Shown: positions 879 through 32,071 of the stretch, piece after piece
How positions within the stretch are numbered: the stretch's first letter is position 1
How the letters are laid out: every line of letters begins with the position of its first letter
Assembly (NCBI GenBank): GCA_000934665.2
Contig: JYFJ02004414.1
Span: 1-32,273, forward strand
Direction: 5' to 3'
DNA from: Catajapyx aquilonaris
Taxonomy: Eukaryota
Length of the DNA: 32,273 nucleotides
The notes under the pieces: generated by a model
Told to the model about the DNA's origin: nothing
Databases searched by the model: none
What the model saw: the letters and a program-made list of their open reading frames with translations, nothing else
Position numbers and translations under genes: made by a program

Positions 879-3800
879 TCACATAGCAGTGTTCTGATCA
901 AATCCAAGATTGTCAACACCTGCGCCTTTATCAGAATTGTCTTCTTTGGTATCGTCTTCTGTGTGTTCCACGTATTTGTAGCGCGTGCACAATAAAAGGA
1001 AAATGATCATGTCCAGTCCCATGAGGCCAGCAAACAAGAAAAATTCCATGGACTGCCTCTTGAAGAATTTGGCCTCGGCTACGATGACCACGATCAGATT
1101 TCCGAAAGCCACTGTCAGCAGCCAGGCAGCTTGCAGCACAGACTTCATGCTTACAGGTGACTAGAAGAGAGATTACCTTATTAGTTTCGGAAAAGCGAGT
1201 CTATAATAAAGTTAACCAACCTGTGTGAATGAAAACTCCAGTCCTGTTATGGAGAACATAATCTCTCCTACAGTTATGATGAAATACTGAGGTATCAGCC
1301 ACAGCATGTGTATGGAATTTGGTTCTGTCAGGGTAAACAACTTGACTACAGGTTTCGAATTGTTTGATGAGTCTACCAGAATAGAGTAAACACCGCCTAG
1401 CCGGAGCTGAACACCACCAAGATCTGCCATGCCGCTTCTGCTATTGTCACTCATCCACACCTCGTAAATTCCGCTGTCTGTTTCCTTATAGTCACTGGCA
1501 CCCATGTCTTCACCAGTGCCATTTAGCGGAAAAATTAGTGGTTTGTCTGATGAACTGCTCCTAAGTTCTATCCGATCGCTGCTATTCTCTGCGAACACAT
1601 TATAGAGAAGTCTCACTTTTGGTTTTCCGCTCCTCGACTTGTCCAGGTCGTCTGGTATCTCCACATCGTACACTGAGAGCTCACCATCTCTCTGTCCAAT
1701 CAGTATGGTGTGGGCCTGCAAAGAAAGTCAATTAACACCAAGCGAGCTACACAAGATAGTACCATTTACCTCTTTCTCAACCGCTGTAACACTGGTCGTA
1801 AGTGTATCATTTGTGCCCAGCACACAATTTTGAAGGATATGAAATTCCACCGGAAAAGTCAAGTTTCCTTGTACATGCAAATGCCGTTGCAACTGTGAGC
1901 TTTCAGAAGCCACTGTCATTTGGAACTCCGGTGACGTGGATCTAACTTCAACGGGGCATGGAAGTGAATTGATGAAGACCAGGTGTGCCGATCCTGCAAC
2001 AGGAAGGTCAGGGTACGTCTTCTCCAGCTTGAGTTCCACTATTCCGGACACCACAAAGGCGAGTCCTGCAAGAATCCCTCCGACGATCATCCTCTGCAAC
2101 GGCTTCACCAGAAGGCCACATTTGGCGAAGACAGGATACACACATCCTTCGAATATGGGTATAAAGGCCAGGATCAAGAATGGGTTGATCACTTGCATTT
2201 GATCAGGCTTGATGGTGTAGCTGCCAATCTCGCCGTCCATCCTGGTGGCTTGGAATGTCCATCGGGAGCCTTGCTGGTCAAAGAGAGCCCAGAAGATCGG
2301 TAGGGGTACATAGAGCAACAGGACTCGAAGGACGGCCTTGATGTCTTCGATCAAGGTGCGATCGAATTTGTTGTCAGCCCAGTCCAACCAGTGAGTTCTC
2401 TTTTCGTTGCGGGATGTGTCAGTGACGCGACGACGTTGTCTCCACTTTTGCTTCACAGCGTGCTGAAAAAACGGGCCATTCAAAAATCGAGTACATGAAC
2501 CGTGTGATGATTAGTTCCCCACGTACCGTCATGCAATTCCACACAGTGACAATGATGGCACCCTCAGGAGCAAGCATTTTATAAAGGGGTTTCCCAGCCA
2601 CAAAGATAACTGCAGCGAAAGATTAGTTAGTGTTAGGTTATGGCAAGAAGAAGCGCAACTGAAGTAAGAAAAGACAGAGATCCTTGTCCGACATGCATTG
2701 TAATACTAGGTGTCACATTGACACTTTATGCACTATCTAGGTTCTTTTTTTGAAGCACATGTTCAAAAATCATGCAACAGCAGATACATGCATATAGTGA
2801 TATGGCACGGCATGCGTGTGAGTTGGTTGGGTTAATTATAAACGAGTTTCTAATATGCCGTTATAGGTAAGACTCACAGTCATACACCTCGTCACTTGCA
2901 ACACCACGTTGCCAGTAGGCTGTTTGATTATGTACATACTTTTTCCGGCCAGAAAAAGAACTGCAAGATATTTGAAATGACCACCTGATAATCACACAAC
3001 ACTTCAAATATCTACGACACTTACGCAAAGAAACGATCATTAGGATGGCAGGTACTCCAAAAGCAAGGGAGTAACACGTATCGTTTCCGTAGCACTTGAC
3101 ATCCTGCCTCAATATCGGCGTCAGAAACGTCGAGATGAGCGACCCTGCATTGATCGAAAAGTAAAAGACGGAGAAGAAGCTCTGCAGTTGCCTCTGCTGA
3201 TCCGGAAGCTTAAACTGGTCTCCTCCAAAGGCCGACACGCAGGGCTTGATTCCTCCTGTCCCAAGAGCTATCAAGGCAAGTCCCAGCATGGAGAAGGCAG
3301 TGGATGGTAGCTTAAGAGGAGGAAGAGCCGCGAAGCTGAGGACCACGTTGCCCAGAGCGTAGATTATGGAGACGTAGAAGATGGTCCTGAACTTGCCCAG
3401 GAGGGAATCGGCCAGTATGGCTCCCAAAAGAGGGGTGAAATAGCACAGCATGTTGAACGAGTGGTATATCACAGTGGAGTCGTCCTCGGAGAACTTCAAC
3501 ATCCCGTTCAGGTACAGGGCCAAGATCGCTGTGGAGGGATCAAATGGATGAATCTTTCTCTCATGGGTGGATACCATCACAGAGGTATATGATGTGCCAG
3601 TTAGTTACAGGAAAAAATAGGAAAAAAATAACCTGGCTGGTATGAGGTGCAGGATTATAATGGTGAATATAGCGTAGGCTACTCATAGTAAAACTGTACT
3701 GCAAAACAAGCTCGTTGCATTACAGGCCGGTTGGACGCAACGACCGCAACAATTACGGTGCCTACGCAGGATTTATGAGAACAAATCATATAAATAGTCC

Positions 3801-10119: not shown

Positions 10120-12654
10120 TTTTTGGTGGGTTCCTACGAAATGTGTCCTTCAAATTCACACCCTGTCATGGTACCCGTTCACGTATGACACACTACTGCT
10201 CATGTGATATGGCTCGAAATCAACGGGAAGTGTCGATACTGCCAATATGAAGTGGGGAAAAAAATTGTCTCGGCAACCCAACAATGTTGCCAGATTTCCT
10301 ATATTTATTGAGCTGCATAAACTTATATCTTTGAGTCAAATGCTAAAAACCGAGATGTCATAAATTTCAAATATTATTGTGGTTGACCTTCTATTCGACT
10401 GCTTGTACCATTGAACTAAAAGGAAGTGGTGTGTTCCAGAGGTTGCCAGCATTGTGTGATAATTTCACTTCCTCAATTACCGCTCCTATAAGCGCACTTT
10501 TTAAAGACCGCTTGTGACATTTTATTATGAGGCGTTTTGCAAACTTGTGGTACTGTATATAACGAGAGGTAAATCCTGCTGCAGGGTGATCCAAAATTAT
10601 TGACACAAAGGTACTGTACGCACCTGACGTGGAAGGAGCAGCAATGAGAAAGCCTAGCACGAAGACAGCTATACAGTATTTCTGCAGTTCAAATGAGTTA
10701 AAATTTTCAGGACACTCTCTATGTTAATGAATTAGTTTTGAACAATTTGGTTAAATTGTATTAGATTGTTGTGTTGCCAGGTTGCCAGTTGTCAACCAAC
10801 AATACAATATGTATCCAGACTTTTGGTTCACCCTGTGTTTTGTGCAACGTCAGGTTGTTTTTGAACCTCGGTGATGTCGCTATTGGTTTCGCCTACGTCG
10901 TACTGTAGTGTACCGTTCAGGATGCAATATTGCTCTGAATAAATAAGTTAACTCGTAAAAGTACAGTATAAAACGGTACTGGGCCTGCAGGTTAAGTGGC
11001 TAAGTGCGTGGGTGACATCAGGTCGTTTTGATCAATCTGATTATCAGTGGCGTGCCGTGCAGACATCCAGCACTAGACTAACGAAGAACAATGAATCAGA
11101 TGGACTTCTTGGACAAGCTGTTGCTGATTACTCAACAAATCCACGTCGTTATAAATACTCTATTAAAGGTGTTTGAAAACTATTCAAGTTCTTAATTTTA
11201 CATTGATTGTACTACACAGGCCTGACACAGGCATGCAGCAGTACAAAAACATATTAATCGCATTTATTGCCACAACTGTCCGCCTCTGTGTGTTTGATAC
11301 TGTCATGTAAGTAGGCCTACAGTTTATTTGGAAATTCCACTTCTAAAAATTCAATATTATTGATGCAATTTTAGATCAAGCAGTTTTATAGTTGAGTACA
11401 CGGCAACATTTTGAATTATTGTGTGCGTCATGTTCCTGTCTTATGACCCTGCCCTGCACTATTATGACAAGCCGGGTCTGGGCGGATTCCGTAATCATTA
11501 CGTACCGTATCCATGCAAAGTCTAAGAACCGGACATTAGTTCAATGACCATGTTAGCACACAGCAATCGATTCTGCTCCATATAAATTCACATCACAAAT
11601 GCACGCAATGGTATTGCATATGTCTTAAAACCAAAATGCTGTATCAAAATACTGCACGTAGGATATAATTATGTACATCACGGCTTGTATAACATGTTAA
11701 TCTCAATTTAGCCTAATTAATTTTCTTAAACTGCACTAAGCACTTTTTTCAAACCATAGGCTATACACCCCATCTCATAAAATAATGCGAGTCTAATTGC
11801 ATGCATTGAAGAAAGGTTGACATATCTATTAACCATGCAAAAACTATTGAAATACCAATGCTGACTATGAGGTACGCCATACTTTTGGCGAAGCAAAAAT
11901 ATTGGAGTAGTTTTAGTTTTGAGACTACATGAATTTAAAATGCAAACTCTAACTTTGCCATGAAGTTAGTACGGTACGGTAATTTTGTTGCTTAGATTAC
12001 ACCTGCTTCAGGCATGTGCGACAGTGAAAAAATCTAAATGATATGATGAGCAATACCGGAAGTGTGGGACAAACCCGCACAGATAACCGCTAACTCATGA
12101 CACAAATAATAATAAAAAACAGGCAGGTGTCTTTTCTTGTGACGATGAATTGCTGCAGTGGTGTGGTACCATTACTTAGAACTATCCCCCGTAAGTTTTC
12201 TTATGGGTTTCTGTAGTTCTTTGCTGCTGACAGCTACTGACAACGACATGGGACATGTGTATCGACAGTGGATCTGGTACTGTTATTAATTGTTGGCAAC
12301 AATGAGCTAACAATTATTAACAACAAGGATAGACCCATGCCTGCACCTGAATCTTTCGCTGGTGCAAGAGGCCATAAGAACCCACCAAATATTTTTCGCC
12401 GTAACGCCTAACGTGACATTACGATTAATCTACAACATGTCAATATTTTAAAATTTTATGGCGAAAAATTATTTGAAAAGTAATCGGTCATATTTAGACA
12501 TATTTAGTCCCTGCTATAACATATCTCTCAATCAATAGGTTTACAAATGTACCTATGGTATAGACTGGAGAGTATATACAGCAGGTGGGTGTAGAGAATA
12601 TTTTACGTAAATAACTTAAATAAATAAACAACCTAATAGATATGTAAAACTTAC

Positions 12655-16868: not shown

Positions 16869-19800
16869 TTAGCTTCCTGCTATCATCTTCAGCTGACGCT
16901 TGTACCTTCTGACCAGTAGGTACAAGATGACTACGTTCAGTGCCAGCAAGGCAGCAAACATAAAAAATTCAGCGTACAGGTACTGCTTGCCGAATAGTTC
17001 TGTCTCGGCAATAGAAATCACCAGCACATGAGCTATTGCCATTCCCATCAGATACATAGTTGTCACAAGAGACTTCATTCCTACCGGTGACTGAAAAGAA
17101 AGCTCTGAGTGTATTGGCCACATATGTATAGTATATACAACTGCGGAGCAATCACCTCTGTGTAGGCCAACTCCAGTCCTGTGACGGAGAACATGATTTC
17201 TCCAAAAGTGAGAATAATGTACTGGGGCACCAGCCACATCATGTTCATCGAATTAGGCTTCGTCACGGGGTACACAAATATTCCATCTTGTGTCACCAGT
17301 ATGGAATAAACTCCGCCGGATCCGACGGGAAAGTCAATATATTTACCACTCTCCTTACTGACCAAGTACTTCCCTGGGGGAATCTCGTGGTAGTACGATG
17401 TGCTTTCAAAGACATTGCCTTCGCAAGATAGAGTGTAATTTTTTTCCTTCCCCATATATTTTTCGTCATATACCCATTCTATGGGTACTGGCAATGGGTA
17501 CCAAGGGGTTTCTTCTGCAAATTGTTACATGGCATTTACAATGATGCGGTCTATAAAATGAAATCATACAAAGATAATGTGGTCAACAATTAAGGACTAA
17601 CCAGGATTCTTGCCAAGCAGCTCAGATTCTGAAGGCTCGTTTGGATAAGGCCCTGGAAATGAAAATGTCTTATTGGTCATTTTCGAGCAATGTTTGTGAT
17701 TCAAGGCAATATACAGTATTTGAGCTGCTACAGAATCATGCACAATAATTTATTGTGCATCAATTATTGATTGTTTTGTTGCCTCATGCAGGATCCTAGA
17801 TTCCTAGTAGGCCTACAGAGAAAACAATTTTGAAACTATTTTCAGGTGAGGATATGCAAAATCGAGTTACCCTACGGCGATTCATTCTCATGCTATTAGT
17901 GAAAAGTTCTGTATATTCAATCGAAATCACCTGAAGAATAGGCACGACTGATAAACATTTTACAAGGCCTATTCATATCTGGCCCAAAATACAGTAAATA
18001 CTATAGCGATCGCACCTGTATATTCCTTTATCACCACAGTAGTGCCACAGGCGCTCCTATCATACAGAAATCTACAAAGAAAAAAACATAAAAAGAAACA
18101 TTACATGCATGTCAACATATTGACTTGAACATGACAGGTTTAGCCTACCTGAAAGAGGGAAGGCCATCGGCGAGCTTTTGTAATTCGTCCTCTTTAATAA
18201 TTTTGTGCCCCTCGGTACTTCCGTTTTCTGATGTAAGAATGTAAGTATATGCCTGAAAACAAGGGTGGTGGAGTAATGAAAACGGCTGAACGATTCTGCA
18301 ATGTCAAATCAAATAAAGTTGTCGAAACTTGAGTTAATACGGGTATTATACAAGTTATTTCCGATGCTGATAGGAATTGAGTGAAATGCACTTGACCTGA
18401 CTAGATTCTTACCTTGTTTTTTTCGACCACCACGTTTATAGTTGTATTTATTTTACACTCCGCAGATAATAATTTCGCCGTATTTTCGCCAGCAGTCAAA
18501 TGCTTGAACATGAACATTTGCTTCTTCTCTAGGTCCTTCGGATCAGAAGTCCCTACCTGCAGGTTGATTGGCTCGCATCCGAGCGCATTGATGAAGATCA
18601 AGTGCCCTTTGTCATTTCGAGGTAAATCCGCGTAGGTAGTTTTGAGCTCCAGCTCCAGTATTCCAGAGGCCACAAAGCCCAAGGTGGCAAAGACCCCGCC
18701 GACCACCATCCGGTCCAAAGGCTGCACCAAGAAGCCGATTTTGGCTCCGACTGGATACAGAACGTACTCGAATAAGGGTATCAGCAGCACCACCAGAATG
18801 GCATTGGTGACCTTCATCATCTTTGGGGGTATGCTGAACGAGCCCATGTTGCCGTTCATCATGGCAGCCTGGTTGGTCCAGCGGACTCCTTGCTGTTCGA
18901 ATTGTGCCCAGAGGAAAGGCATGGGACAAAATATGATCAGGACGCGCAGGGCAGTCTTGATGTCGTTGATCAACTGCTGGTCGAACTTGTTGTCGGCCCA
19001 GTCCAGCCAGTGATCCCTTGTTGCAGCCTGTGGTTCCGACGTTTCACTTTCTCCCTTACGACCCCGTGACATCCTACGGCTTATGGCATACTGTAACAAG
19101 AGGTGCTTTTTAATGAAGGAAATTGAGTGTACCTTGTTCTGTACAAGTGCAACCTATAGCTTTATTTGCACGACGCTATTAACATGCCATGTGATGGAGA
19201 CAATATCTATCCACTGTCATTCATTTATCACATGAACATTTCTTTAAATACATTAAAAGGTAAGTAAATGCTTACTTACACTCATGCACCGGAATATCTC
19301 CTTAACCATGTTGCACGATGGCTTGTGGATCACGTAATAATACCTTCCGACGAGAATCACACCTAAGGAATGTATTTGGTAATGTGAGATATTTTGTGCA
19401 GGCCTATCTTAACACACCTTGCTACATAGGCAACTTTACAATTAGATCGATTTTTGTTGATAACTTCCTGTATTGATGCCTTTGTCGATATACTGTATAG
19501 AACAATGGAACGACTCTCTTTGATATTCGATACAAGCATTCTTATACTGCAATAATTAAGTGCCTATGGTTGTTGGGTTATGCACAGCGACATACGTACC
19601 AAGTGAGATGACCATAAAAATGGCCAGAATTCCAAAAGCTGCAGCATCGCAATAGATTTTCCCAAAGCACTGTATTTCCCTTCGGATAATAGGAGTGAGA
19701 GGATAGGAGATGAGAACCCCTGCGTTGATGGTCAAGTAGAAGATGGCAAAGTAGGTCTGGAGCTCCTTAAATTGCTGTGGTACCACGTACTGATCGCCTC

Positions 19801-20380
19801 CAAAGCATATCACGCATGGCTTGAGTCCTCCTACTGCAATCCCGATTACAAACACCCCTATCATGGCAACCGCAATCTGAGCTGCACCTTCCATAAACCC
19901 TAGGGCAGAGATCACCACGACTAGTGAGCCTCCCACATACACGATCGTGAGGTACAGCATGGTGTGGTACTGCCCCAAAAAGGCGTCGGCCAGGCAGCCT
20001 CCGAGGAGGGAAGCGAAGTTGCAGAGGCATACAAAAGTGTGAAAGACAGTCATGTTTTGTCCTCTAGTGAACTTCAGTTCGTCGCGGAAGAATTGACTTA
20101 AGACGGCTGTAAAATGGGCAGAAAATTATTTGTTTCCAGAAAAAATTCTTCGTAGCAAGTTTGCACCCATCTCAGTTTCATGCTGCTGAATGAAACATTA
20201 CTCGCCAGAATCAGTGCAAATTTCTACAGCAAGGTTATGACTGTATGCCATATTACATACAGTATAAAGTTACATAAAATAACTTACATATCAATCCGTA
20301 GAAATATAATCGTTCACAAAACTCGCTGCCCAAGATGAAATATATACCATGCGGATACTTGAGTGTCTGGAAAAGTTCAC

Positions 20381-20479
<99 letters not shown>

Positions 20480-20591
20480 CCACCACCACCACCACCACCT
20501 GGTTTTGGTTTAAAGAAGCAGGGCTTACTTTCTCTTTTCCTCCCGCAGCTTCACCTTTTGCAGAGATGTTGCCGCCTCCTTCTTCCGCCAT
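16869..20591 (-). CDS. Second, divergent SLC15/POT oligopeptide transporter (tandem paralog), about 733 aa, 10 coding exons
   Basis: Exons 20591-20529, 20366-20288, 20106-19600, 19362-19280, 19090-18413, 18252-18149, 18071-18016, 17652-17602, 17514-17156, 17090-16869 join in frame with no stops. Motifs: EFCERLYFYG, GGLKPCVICFGGDQY, HWLDWADNKFD, VPQYIILTFGEIMFSVTGLE. Confidence 0.92.
20385..20498. repeat. Compound microsatellite (AAT)21(CAT)10(CAC)7
   Basis: Read directly; lies in intron 20367-20528. Confidence 0.97.
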
Positions 20592-22376: not shown

Positions 22377-29845
<7,469 letters not shown>

Positions 29846-31042: not shown

Positions 31043-32071
31043 ATGGCCTTTTTGACTGGGAGCTACCTGATGGACGCACTTTTATTCGTCATCGGCATCG
31101 TATATGCTTTTTATCTTTATATGACCGCTGGCTTGAATTATTGGTCTAGTCGCGGTGTGAAATGGGTTCCCTTAGGATTTTGGACATCATTTATAGACAG
31201 GTTTGTGACTGTGAAGTATCTCGGTGACTTGGATCACAATATCTACAAGAAACTGTCCCGCATGAATGTCCAGTTTGGCGGGTTTTTTGAACTGCGGAGG
31301 CCATGCATGATGATTTTAGACCCAGAACTTTTGCGCAGCATTTACGTCAAAGATTTTGATCACTTTATCGACCGTCGTAATTTTGAGACAAGGGGGACTT
31401 CAATGTTCTCAAAGTTTCTATTCTCTCTGGACGGAATGGAATGGAAAAATTTGAGGGCCAAAATGACACCTACGTTCTCCTCTGGAAAGATGAAACGCAC
31501 TTTCGAAACTATGAGGTCATGTACCGGAAACATGGAACGTTACCTAACCGATCTTGCAAACAAAGGGGAACCAGTAGAAATGAACAATTGCTTCTCTCGG
31601 TACACTATGGATACCATAGGCAGCAGTGTTTTCGGAATTGAGTGCGACTCCTTCCACGACCAAGACTCGCAGTTTTTAAAGACAGTCAGCACTTTTCAAA
31701 CTCTGGATTTTGAAAGAATGATGCGGTTCTTTTTTACTCTTATGTTTCCAAAATTAGCTGAAAAGTTGAAGGTAAGCTATACATCCGACGATTGATTTAG
31801 TTGGTTGGGCTTCAGGACAATTATTAATATATAGACTATATTGTTGTACAGTTTCCAGTATTTCCGGATTCAGGCACCAAGTTTTTTATTGACGTTTTGG
31901 AAGCGACCATAAAGCACCGACGAGACACAGGGGATACAAGAAATGACTTCCTGCAGTTGATGTTGGAACTTCAGGCGGGACAGCTGAAAGACGATAACCC
32001 AGCTGACCATGAAGAGAACTTGCTTGAAATTGAAGCGAAAATGGCCAGCCCTGGACAGGCAGACAAATTCG
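31043..32071 (+). CDS. Cytochrome P450, CYP3 clan (CYP6-like), first two coding exons; 3' part outside the window
   Basis: Exons 31043-31771 (donor gtaagc) and 31852-32071 (weaker donor gtacct). N-terminal TM anchor, YW..RGV, DPELLRSIYVKDFDHFIDR, WKNLRAKMTPTFSSGKMK, DTIGSSVFGI, RNDFLQLMLEL. Confidence 0.93.

What the first reader, a model, noticed from the sequence alone, without database searches (positions are those of the whole stretch)
2961..3024. 14-bp RNA stem in the 64-nt intron before exon B masks its 3' splice region
Seen: on the pre-mRNA, AGAUAUUUGAAGUG (3013-3000) pairs with CAUUUCAAAUAUCU (2979-2966): 11 perfect pairs, one G-U and two more, with a 20-nt loop, ending 5 nt before the exon. 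It covers the pyrimidine tract of exon B. I see no such stem in the 64-nt intron after exon A. Inference: a structural switch that weakens B and lets A be chosen. A tailed mirtron is an alternative.
Basis: partly seen in the sequence, partly recalled or inferred. Interest (0 to 1): 0.7.

Follow-up and report, generated by a model that had tools for sequence, protein, structure and literature searches.

The report
Hairpin intron before an alternative exon
A short intron in a crustacean-type peptide-transporter gene folds into a stable hairpin that hides the acceptor region of the first of two interchangeable exons; it may tune which exon is used, but that is untested and the hidden exon is the one seen in the assembled mRNA.

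Summary
The stem is real. The intron at 3024-2961 (minus strand) folds at -17.4 kcal/mol (z -3.68, 0 of 200 shuffles), and 0.85% of GC-matched 64-nt windows do as well. It lies in an SLC15/PTR2 peptide-transporter gene, just before the first of two homologous 83-nt exons: B (2960-2878) and A (2609-2527). Including both or neither shifts the reading frame.

A transcript-like contig from a second study removes exactly this intron and joins upstream exon-B-downstream exon, skipping A. The hairpin therefore does not block B.

Predicted accessibility of B's acceptor region is the lowest of seven introns (0.18, against 0.70 before A). B also has a weak branch-site match and a second hairpin at its start. 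My best reading (about 0.4) is a local damper of the proximal exon's acceptor that leaves room for A.

Rivals:
- A neutral hairpin (0.3). One predicted constitutive intron folds nearly as well, and a decayed second copy has lost the fold.
- A docking/selector layout (0.15). The arm core recurs in all three introns, but the alternative duplexes are no stronger than background.
- A 5'-tailed mirtron (0.07).

Orthologous introns could not be obtained, so conservation is untested. If functional, it is a new member of a known kind, of moderate interest.

The parts
3025..3528 (-). Constitutive upstream exon of the SLC15/PTR2 transporter gene (ends ..LMIVSL; holds GGIKPCVSAFGGDQF)
   Evidence: The X5 contig piece covers 3025-3528. 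Translation. 60-76% identity to pancrustacean peptide transporters carrying PF00854.
2961..3024 (-). 64-nt intron that forms the hairpin (GUAAGU..UUGCAG)
   Evidence: Joint 3025|2960 skips exactly 64 nt in the X5 contig. MFE -17.4, z -3.68.
3000..3013 (-). 5' arm (S1), AGAUAUUUGAAGUG; starts 11 nt after the 5' splice site
2980..2999 (-). 20-nt loop. It holds the intron's only branch-site-like match that I found by eye (GUGAU, A 31 nt before the acceptor).
   Evidence: Sequence. The branch-site consensus YURAY is recalled from memory and was not tested by any tool.
2966..2979 (-). 3' arm (C1), CAUUUCAAAUAUCU; covers positions -19 to -6 of exon B's acceptor
   Evidence: Mean P(unpaired) over -20..-4 is 0.18.
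2878..2960 (-). Exon B, 83 nt (LFLAGKSMYIIKQPTGNVVLQVTRCMT). This is the canonical-like variant and is present in the assembled transcript.
2939..2958 (-). Second small hairpin at the start of exon B (CUUUUUCUGG/CCGGAAAAAG). Together with the intron hairpin it brackets the AG.
   Evidence: Inverted repeat I7. The 35-nt piece folds at -8.6, z -1.78 (10 of 200 shuffles). Intron plus 30 nt of exon: -25.0, z -3.83.
2610..2877 (-). 268-nt intron between exons B and A. Its 3' end carries CUAAC, CUAAC and CUAAU and is predicted open.
   Evidence: P(unpaired) 0.70. The 94-nt acceptor context has z -0.70.
2762..2771 (-). S2, same-sense copy of the arm core (GAUUUUUGAA)
   Evidence: direct-repeat family D2
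2743..2758 (-). C2, complement-type copy (GUGCUUCAAAAAAAGA). It is the best partner of S1 in the middle intron.
   Evidence: S1:C2 duplex -8.3 kcal/mol; 24.5% of background segments do as well.
2527..2609 (-). Exon A, 83 nt (IFVAGKPLYKMLAPEGAIIVTVWNCMT), the divergent variant. It is skipped in the assembled transcript.
   Evidence: Joint 2878|2462 skips it. A 212-nt low-depth contig covers 2527-2738 and ends exactly at 2527.
2463..2526 (-). 64-nt intron after exon A (GUACGU..UUUCAG); no significant fold
   Evidence: -9.2 kcal/mol, z +0.75
2479..2488 (-). S3, third same-sense copy of the arm core (GAUUUUUGAA)
   Evidence: C1 (14 nt) against this intron: -7.2, background fraction 0.039. 18-nt elements S3:C1: -10.7.
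1770..2462 (-). Constitutive downstream exon (HAVKQKW..HWLDWA..)
   Evidence: The X5 contig piece covers 1769-2462. Translation. The GT begins at 1769.

Best explanation
The hairpin is a local cis-acting structure on the pre-mRNA of an SLC15 peptide-transporter gene. The 64-nt intron is transcribed as one short unit, so the 14-bp stem can close before exon B is made.

The stem leaves three things free: the 5' splice site (11 nt upstream of the stem), the loop with the only branch-site-like match, and the terminal AG. It buries positions -19 to -6, where U2AF would bind. A second small hairpin at the start of exon B closes the other side of the AG.

This makes the acceptor of the proximal, canonical exon B slow or weak without abolishing it. 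In the fraction of transcripts where it is not used in time, the upstream donor pairs with the open, branch-site-rich acceptor of exon A. The 83-nt exon length then removes 'both' and 'neither' products by frameshift.

Shown: the stem, its stability, the exon pair, precise removal of the intron, B in the assembled mRNA, and the accessibility contrast. Inferred: that the stem forms in vivo, that it lowers B use, and that it was selected for this.
For: - Stem stability: z -3.68, 0 of 200 shuffles; top 0.85% of GC-matched windows; kept in the 701-nt fold.
- Mean P(unpaired) of the acceptor region is 0.18. That is the lowest of 7 introns, which range from 0.33 to 0.70, and it is 0.70 before exon A.
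- Intron plus exon-B start folds at -25.0, z -3.83. The same stretch at exon A gives z -0.70.
- Exon pair: both exons are 83 nt, and read after B, exon A carries a stop in the shifted frame (frame 0).
- The intron between B and A is 268 nt, so steric exclusion does not apply.
- A decayed second copy in the DNA runs differs at 3 arm positions, 2 of which break pairs. Its intron folds no better than shuffles (-9.4, z +1.0). The working copy keeps a perfect stem. This points weakly toward constraint.
- Precedent: stabilising a conserved hairpin upstream of U2AF1 exon Ab, one of a duplicated exon pair, lowered that exon's inclusion (PMC5224494, passages read).
Against: - The only transcript-like contig contains B, not A, and removes this intron cleanly. 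Any damping is partial and its size is unknown.
- No mature A-containing transcript was seen. There is only a 212-nt low-depth piece that still carries intron sequence.
- Hairpins of this strength occur at 14 loci in 32 kb. One of 5 other short introns, predicted to be constitutive, reaches -16.9, z -2.82. A neutral origin is therefore realistic.
- No orthologous intron was available. There is no test of conservation or compensatory change.
- The second copy gives no outgroup, so which lineage changed is unknown.
- Branch-site and tract strengths were judged by eye against a recalled consensus.
Confidence: 0.4

Rival explanations
1. Neutral hairpin. A fortuitous AT-rich inverted repeat in a short intron that splicing tolerates, with no measurable effect on exon choice.
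For: - 40 of 4713 GC-matched windows (14 loci) fold as well.
- A predicted constitutive intron of the paralogue folds at -16.9, z -2.82.
- The intron is spliced precisely and B is used.
- The second copy shows that three arm changes take the fold to background, so the stem could equally be recent.
- There is no conservation data.
Against: - The stem sits in one of only three introns of an alternative-exon cluster.
- It covers the acceptor region specifically.
- It is reinforced by a second hairpin at the exon start.
- Its arm core recurs three more times in the cluster introns, against 0.17 expected (post hoc).
Confidence: 0.3
2. Docking/selector layout left by duplication of a stem-loop together with the exon (the Ivanov and Pervouchine model). 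S1 is a left docking site just after the constitutive donor. C1 (before B) and C2 (before A) compete for it. In this reading the hairpin S1:C1 is the 'B-on' state, and S1:C2 loops B out and selects A. That gives the stem the opposite sign to the first reader's idea.
For: - Element order on the pre-mRNA is S1-C1-[B]-S2-C2-[A]-S3.
- There are three extra copies of the 8-nt core or its complement in 368 nt, against 0.17 expected (post hoc P about 7e-4). For the 10-mer: 5 in the window against 0.42 expected, 4 of them in the cluster. It is also found unprompted as repeat family D2.
- C2 is the best partner of S1 in the middle intron.
- The strong S1:C1 (-15.9) against the weak S1:C2 (-8.3) predicts B as the default, which matches the contig.
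- The model is set out in PMC6071210 (Discussion and Introduction read).
Against: - The alternative duplexes are no better than background: S1 against the middle intron 0.245, C1 against the middle intron 0.185, S1 against intron 3 0.263. Only C1 against intron 3 reaches 0.039.
- Pairwise intron alignments are not significant beyond the 10-mer (24, 330 and 94 of 500 shuffles reach the observed score).
- The S2-C2 local hairpin is not predicted (z +0.36).
- C2 lies about 135 nt from exon A.
- The motif was defined after seeing it.
- In a 64-nt intron, B needs no approximation to the donor.
Confidence: 0.15
3. 5'-tailed mirtron. After splicing and debranching, the intron hairpin is trimmed at its 9-nt 5' tail and diced into ~22-nt RNAs, with the 3p species ending at the acceptor AG.
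For: - In the MFE structure, pairing runs from nt 10 to nt 62 of 64. That is about 20 pairs with two 1-nt bulges and a small apical stem, leaving AG as a 2-nt 3' overhang.
- Intron length is in the usual mirtron range (recalled).
- The intron is spliced.
Against: - No Rfam family matches the hairpin at E<=10.
- The basal three pairs are absent from the centroid.
- At -17.4 kcal/mol it is modest for a pre-miRNA (recalled).
- 5'-tailed mirtrons had been noted in vertebrates and 3'-tailed ones in Drosophila (PMC3431481, passages).
- No small-RNA data were available.
- The decayed copy shows the fold is easily lost.
Confidence: 0.07

Closest known systems
Conserved intronic stem-loop (ESL) upstream of U2AF1 exon Ab, one of two duplicated mutually exclusive exons (PMC5224494, passages read)
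   Same: A local hairpin in the intron just upstream of one member of a duplicated exon pair. That exon has weak branch sites, and hairpin stability changes its inclusion (stabilising lowered it).
   Different: The ESL lies upstream of the branch-point cluster, not over the tract. It is ultraconserved and binds FUBP1/2. Here the stem covers -19 to -6, and neither conservation nor protein binding is known.
Docking-site/selector competing RNA pairings in mutually exclusive exon clusters (Dscam exon 6, 14-3-3, Mhc, srp), and their proposed origin by duplication of a stem-loop arm (PMC6071210; PMC4691838, abstract)
   Same: A stem-loop in the intron before the first variable exon. Arm-like copies lie further down the cluster. 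One arm sits just after the constitutive donor, like a left docker.
   Different: The alternative pairings here are 8-9 AU-rich pairs, no stronger than background. Known systems rest on conservation and mutational tests, neither of which is available here. In that model the local stem would turn B on, not off.
Balancer RNA structures that counteract 'first come, first served' in Dscam1 exon 6 (PMC8791459, abstract)
   Same: RNA pairing that represses proximal variants so that distal ones get a share.
   Different: Balancers are long-range pairings that act against docking-selector pairs in a 48-exon cluster. This is a single local hairpin in a two-exon cluster.
Structure-mediated repression of chicken beta-tropomyosin exon 6B
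   Same: One exon of a mutually exclusive pair is held down by pre-mRNA secondary structure around it.
   Different: This is recalled from memory. The search listed only papers that cite the system, and I read none on it. That structure is larger, involves exon and intron, and works together with PTB.
Mirtrons, including tailed forms (PMC3431481, passages)
   Same: A short spliced intron dominated by one hairpin whose 3' end abuts the acceptor.
   Different: There are no small-RNA reads and no family match. 5'-tailed forms were described mainly from vertebrates.

Membership tests
Tandem-duplicated mutually exclusive exon pair | Adjacent exons of equal length and homologous sequence that fill the same slot of the protein | tested here: met
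   Both exons are 83 nt. By my count on the translations, the peptides align without gaps over 27 residues with 12 identities. Repeat D1 (25 nt, 80%) spans both acceptors and exon starts.
Tandem-duplicated mutually exclusive exon pair | Transcripts carry one exon or the other, not both | tested here: inconclusive
   One contig joins upstream exon-B-downstream exon and skips A. No mature A-only transcript was seen. A is covered only by a 212-nt low-depth contig that ends exactly at A's donor. Including both exons would shift the frame and meet a stop in A.
Tandem-duplicated mutually exclusive exon pair | The same alternative segment occurs in related species | tested here: met
   Annotated isoforms of 3 of 3 decapods (Panulirus, Penaeus japonicus, Homarus) fall into two variants of exactly this segment with identical flanks. 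Isoforms of 2 of 2 barnacles and 4 of 4 insects scored share one variant. The sawfly cluster did not match the anchor motif and was not scored.
Splice-site-masking hairpin | The stem includes the tract or acceptor region and lowers its predicted accessibility relative to other introns | tested here: met
   The 3' arm covers -19 to -6. P(unpaired) is 0.18 against 0.33-0.70 in 6 other introns.
Splice-site-masking hairpin | Disrupting the stem raises use of the masked site, and compensatory changes restore the original level | not testable with these tools
   This needs a minigene or genome editing.
Splice-site-masking hairpin | The stem is conserved, or co-varies, in orthologous introns | not testable with these tools
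   No genome is held for this window. The metagenome scan gave no relative above 67% identity, and none of the loci showed a duplicated exon. The only other copy is a decayed duplicate whose stem is broken.
Docking site / selector system | One site is complementary to two or more selectors, each placed beside a different variable exon | tested here: inconclusive
   Elements run S1-C1-[B]-S2-C2-[A]-S3 and are enriched. Duplex energies of -7 to -8 kcal/mol sit at background level (fractions 0.19-0.26); only C1 against intron 3 reaches 0.039.
Docking site / selector system | Docker and selectors are conserved across species and validated by mutation | not testable with these tools
   No orthologous DNA was available.
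Mirtron (5'-tailed) | The hairpin has one end set by a splice site and a 2-nt 3' overhang | tested here: met
   The MFE pairs nt 10-62 of 64 and leaves AG unpaired. The centroid lacks the basal three pairs.
Mirtron (5'-tailed) | Specific ~22-nt miRNA/star duplex reads, ideally loaded in Argonaute | not testable with these tools
   No small-RNA run was offered.
Mirtron (5'-tailed) | Match to a described miRNA family | tested here: not met
   Two weak, unrelated matches lie elsewhere in 2300-3200 at E<=10. None falls on the hairpin. Most mirtrons are lineage-specific, so this weighs little.

The most novel reading that the evidence does not exclude
The five related elements form a chain of alternating sense and complement sites: S1-C1-[exon B]-S2-C2-[exon A]-S3. 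Each complement site can pair either with the sense site before it or with the one after it.

In one register (S1:C1 and S2:C2) there are two local hairpins and both exons stay in play. In the shifted register (C1:S2 and C2:S3) each exon is closed in its own loop. Mixed states would single out one exon.

Such a register-shift switch could be built by duplicating a whole stem-loop together with its exon. It would be a compact two-exon version of bidirectional pairing control, in a nutrient transporter rather than a neuronal or muscle gene.
Probability: 0.12. Interest if true: 0.6.

Novelty: new member of a known kind. Interest (0 to 1): 0.35.

Why it matters
Mutually exclusive exons in this transporter swap the intracellular end of a transmembrane segment and the start of the following loop. 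The same swap is annotated in three decapods, so the choice is probably physiologically meaningful.

How two-exon clusters keep the proximal exon from always winning is known for only a few genes. Here the whole cluster, 562 nt of introns and alternative exons, fits a small minigene. It has one strong local stem and a few short candidate partners, so stem-disrupting and stem-restoring mutations could cleanly separate three ideas: acceptor masking, docking/selector choice, and a neutral hairpin.

If the stem proves neutral, it is a useful warning that z about -3.7 hairpins occur in ordinary short introns of this genome.

Tried and rejected
- **Own genome:** none is held for this window.
- **Sequencing runs:** no RNA holder is listed. 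Only five runs from two studies hold the stretch. Four are one sample that may be the source of the window.
- **Orthologous introns:** None showed a duplicated small exon, so they cannot test the stem. The protein search found no protein closer than 76% over the upstream exon, so the species itself is not in that collection.
- **Rfam at E<=10:** nothing falls on the hairpin.
- **Competing pairings by energy:** not above background.
- **Extended homology between the three introns:** not significant beyond a shared 10-mer.
- **S2-C2 local hairpin:** not predicted.
- **14-mer arm with up to 3 mismatches:** 8 matches in the window against 4.64 expected, and 9 of 100 shuffles reach 8. The arm is therefore not a dispersed repeat here.
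- **Other inverted repeats in the cluster**: the loop at 2997-2985 against intron 3 at 2514-2502, and 2961-2950 against 2752-2741. I left them as unassessed chance-level candidates. Seven pairs of at least 10 nt were listed in 601 nt.
- **Literature:** a search for mutually exclusive exons together with peptide transporter found 6 papers, none on this gene family's exon pair.
- **Steric hindrance** as the exclusion mechanism: rejected, because the middle intron is 268 nt.
- **U2/U12 incompatibility:** not examined beyond noting that all three introns are GT..AG.
- **A thermosensor reading:** considered and dropped without calculation. A roughly -15 kcal/mol stem should stay closed at any physiological temperature.
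- searches failed and were corrected in the next call.
Full report
**What is there.** The finding lies on the minus strand of a gene for an SLC15/PTR2 proton-coupled peptide transporter. The upstream exon (3528-3025) carries the GGIKPCVSAFGGDQF motif. It is 60-76% identical to peptide transporters of barnacles, ostracods, decapods and insects that carry PF00854. No protein closer than 76% was found, so I can only call the organism a pancrustacean-like animal.

Downstream come these features in order:
- a 64-nt intron (3024-2961);
- an 83-nt exon, B (2960-2878);
- a 268-nt intron (2877-2610);
- a second 83-nt exon, A (2609-2527);
- another 64-nt intron (2526-2463);
- the next constitutive exon (from 2462).

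The two small exons encode alignable 27-residue peptides. They share a 25-nt repeat across acceptor and exon start (80%). Because 83 is not a multiple of three, using both or neither shifts the frame. Read after B, exon A ends in a stop.

**Check of the observation.** The stem is as described:
- 3013-3000 pairs with 2979-2966, with 13 Watson-Crick pairs and one G-U;
- the loop is 20 nt;
- the 3' arm ends 5 nt before the exon.

The intron folds at -17.4 kcal/mol against -8.97 +/- 2.29 for 200 dinucleotide shuffles (z -3.68, none as stable). The hairpin survives in the MFE and the centroid of a 701-nt context. As an empirical background I folded every fourth 64-nt window of the 32-kb window on both strands. 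Of 4713 GC-matched windows, 40 (0.85%) reach -17.4, at 14 separate loci.

Among five other short introns that I could delimit, four are unremarkable (z +0.76, +0.75, -0.03, -1.18). One, a predicted constitutive intron of a paralogous transporter gene at 17155-17091, folds at -16.9 (z -2.82, 2 of 200). The stem is therefore real and unusual, but hairpins of this class do occur in ordinary introns here.

**Transcript evidence.** Five public runs hold the stretch. Four are one DNA sample that may be the source of the window. The fifth, X5, is from another study and of unrecorded kind. It holds a 2730-nt contig that lies on 3528-3025, 2960-2878 and 2462-1769, with joints 3025|2960 (skipping exactly the 64-nt intron) and 2878|2462 (skipping 415 nt: the middle intron, exon A and the last intron). 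Both skipped stretches end in CT..AC on the plus strand, which is GT..AG on the gene's strand. The DNA runs show neither joint. I read this contig as a spliced transcript.

It shows three things:
- the intron is genuine and is removed at the predicted ends;
- exon B is used despite the hairpin;
- exon A can be skipped whole.

Exon A is covered in X5 only by a 212-nt contig (2527-2738) that still carries 129 nt of upstream intron and stops exactly at A's last base. That is what a branch between spliced and unspliced continuations would give, but it is only a hint. Contig depths (44.1 and 3.5) cannot be used as a ratio.

**Is exon choice real elsewhere?** Annotated isoforms of 3 of 3 decapods examined (Panulirus ornatus, Penaeus japonicus, Homarus americanus) fall into two classes. 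They differ only in this segment, between identical flanks. Isoforms of 2 of 2 barnacles and 4 of 4 insects scored share a single version. One sawfly cluster did not match my anchor motif and was left out.

Exon B resembles the single exon of insects much more than A does. BLOSUM scores are 91 against 59 for a termite protein and 92 against 57 for P0114. B is therefore the canonical variant and A the divergent one. A paralogous gene in the same window (about 20363-16893, minus strand) has one 83-nt exon at this place and no duplicate.

**What the stem does to the acceptor.** I ran a partition-function calculation with 40 nt of exon on each side. The mean probability of being unpaired over positions -20 to -4 is 0.18 for the intron before B. 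That is the lowest of seven introns. It is 0.70 for the acceptor of A and 0.33-0.67 for the other five.

Just inside exon B a second small hairpin (2958-2939, -8.6 kcal/mol, z -1.78) closes the other side of the AG. Intron plus 30 nt of exon folds at -25.0 (z -3.83, 0 of 200). The same stretch at exon A gives z -0.70.

By eye, against a recalled YURAY consensus:
- the intron before B has one imperfect branch-site match (GUGAU), which sits in the loop, and a tract interrupted by purines;
- the intron before A ends with CUAAC, CUAAC and CUAAU and a cleaner tract.

The proximal, canonical exon thus has the poorer and more buried acceptor, and the distal exon the better and more open one.

**Best reading.** I take the hairpin as a local damper of B's acceptor. 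It offsets the advantage that a 64-nt upstream intron and first transcription give to B, so that the donor of the upstream exon sometimes reaches A. The frame rule removes mixed products.

It fits precedent. In U2AF1, stabilising a conserved hairpin upstream of one of two duplicated exons lowered that exon's inclusion (PMC5224494, passages). In Dscam1, pairings repress proximal variants to counter 'first come, first served' (PMC8791459, abstract).

A weak point in its favour comes from the DNA runs. They hold a second copy about 92% alike over 2932-3544, at equal depth. It has a 2-nt insertion in the coding exon and a GT-to-GG change at this intron's donor, so it is probably a decayed duplicate. 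It differs at three arm positions, two of which break pairs, and has three extra bases in the loop. Its intron folds no better than shuffles (-9.4, z +1.0). The working copy keeps all 14 pairs. Without an outgroup this shows only that the fold is easily lost when nothing maintains it, or that it is recent. I give this reading 0.4.

**Rival: neutral hairpin (0.3).** The background figures above, the near-equal fold of a predicted constitutive intron, the clean use of B, and the lack of any conservation test keep this close behind.

**Rival: docking/selector layout (0.15).** The 10-nt arm core GAUWUUUGAA occurs 5 times in the window against 0.42 expected. Four of the five are in this cluster, and the repeat finder reports the three same-sense copies unprompted. 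With the 8-nt core and its complement, the introns carry five elements in the order S1, C1, [B], S2, C2, [A], S3. That is three more than the two arms, against 0.17 expected (P about 7e-4, but defined after the fact).

This is the picture that Ivanov and Pervouchine derive from duplicating a stem-loop arm together with an exon. In their model the local pairing a-a' means the first exon is included, and a-a'' loops it out (PMC6071210). It would also fit B as the default, since S1:C1 is -15.9 and S1:C2 is -8.3 kcal/mol.

Against it:
- The alternative duplexes are no better than those the same arms form with random segments of the window. Background fractions are 0.245, 0.185 and 0.263; only C1 against the last intron reaches 0.039.
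- The introns share nothing significant beyond the 10-mer.
- The S2-C2 hairpin is not predicted.

**Rival: mirtron (0.07).** In the MFE the hairpin runs from nt 10 to nt 62 of 64 and leaves AG as a 2-nt overhang. That is the geometry of a 5'-tailed mirtron. No Rfam family matches. The basal pairs are missing from the centroid. 5'-tailed forms were described from vertebrates and 3'-tailed ones from Drosophila (PMC3431481, passages). Small-RNA reads, which define the class, were not available.

**What could not be done.** No genome is held for the window. The single metagenome scan gave only distant relatives without the exon pair. The run search offered no run on record as RNA and no small-RNA run. 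Conservation, compensatory change, the true B:A ratio and dicing all remain open. A literature search for this exon pair in peptide transporters found nothing relevant (6 papers listed, none on the subject). The supplements of the papers cited were not consulted.

**Verdict.** If functional, this is a new member of a known kind, a local splice-site-masking hairpin in a duplicated-exon cluster. Interest is moderate (0.35), mainly because the whole cluster is small enough for a clean mutational test.

Noticed in passing
window 16893-20363, minus strand: A second SLC15/PTR2 transporter gene, about 41% identical in the large exons. It has a single 83-nt exon at the homologous place (about 19362-19280) and no duplicated partner, so the two paralogues lie in tandem within 17 kb.
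   Followed up: partly
window 2932-3544, as seen in runs X1, X3 and X4: The DNA runs hold a second copy about 92% alike at equal depth. It has a 2-nt insertion behind 3364 in the coding exon, a GT-to-GG change at the donor of the hairpin intron, and loss of similarity inside exon B. It is probably a decayed duplicate, or else a very divergent haplotype. It is not present in this window.
   Followed up: partly
window 2939-2958, minus strand: The start of exon B is itself a near-perfect palindrome (CUUUUUCUGG/CCGGAAAAAG) built from the codons for F-L-A-G-K. Exon A encodes F-V-A-G-K without forming it.
   Followed up: partly
window 17091-17155, minus strand: A predicted constitutive 65-nt intron of the paralogue folds at -16.9 kcal/mol (z -2.82). 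This stem covers the donor end rather than the acceptor end.
   Followed up: partly
window 2985-2997 with 2502-2514, and 2950-2961 with 2741-2752: Two further long-range complementarities. The loop of the hairpin pairs with the CUAAU region of the last intron (13 nt, 85%). The acceptor and start of exon B pair with the A-rich run next to C2 (12 nt, 92%). I did not assess either against chance.
   Followed up: no
window 11194-11257 (-), 20430-20493 (-), 26826-26889 (-), 31397-31460 (+), 12269-12332 (+): Stronger 64-nt hairpins than the one studied (-19.7 to -22.8 kcal/mol), of unknown nature. The one at 20430-20493 has a stem of about 17 contiguous pairs (dot-bracket) and lies just upstream of an exon of the paralogue.
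   Followed up: no
window 2548: A G>T difference on the plus strand inside exon A, seen in X5 and X4. By my reading it is a third-position change that keeps valine.
   Followed up: no
proteins P0111/P0112, P0068/P0131, P0083/P0138: In three decapods the second variant of this segment is two residues longer than the first. Their alternative exons would therefore be 83 and 89 nt if the boundaries are the same. Whether their duplication is the same event as the one here is open.
   Followed up: partly
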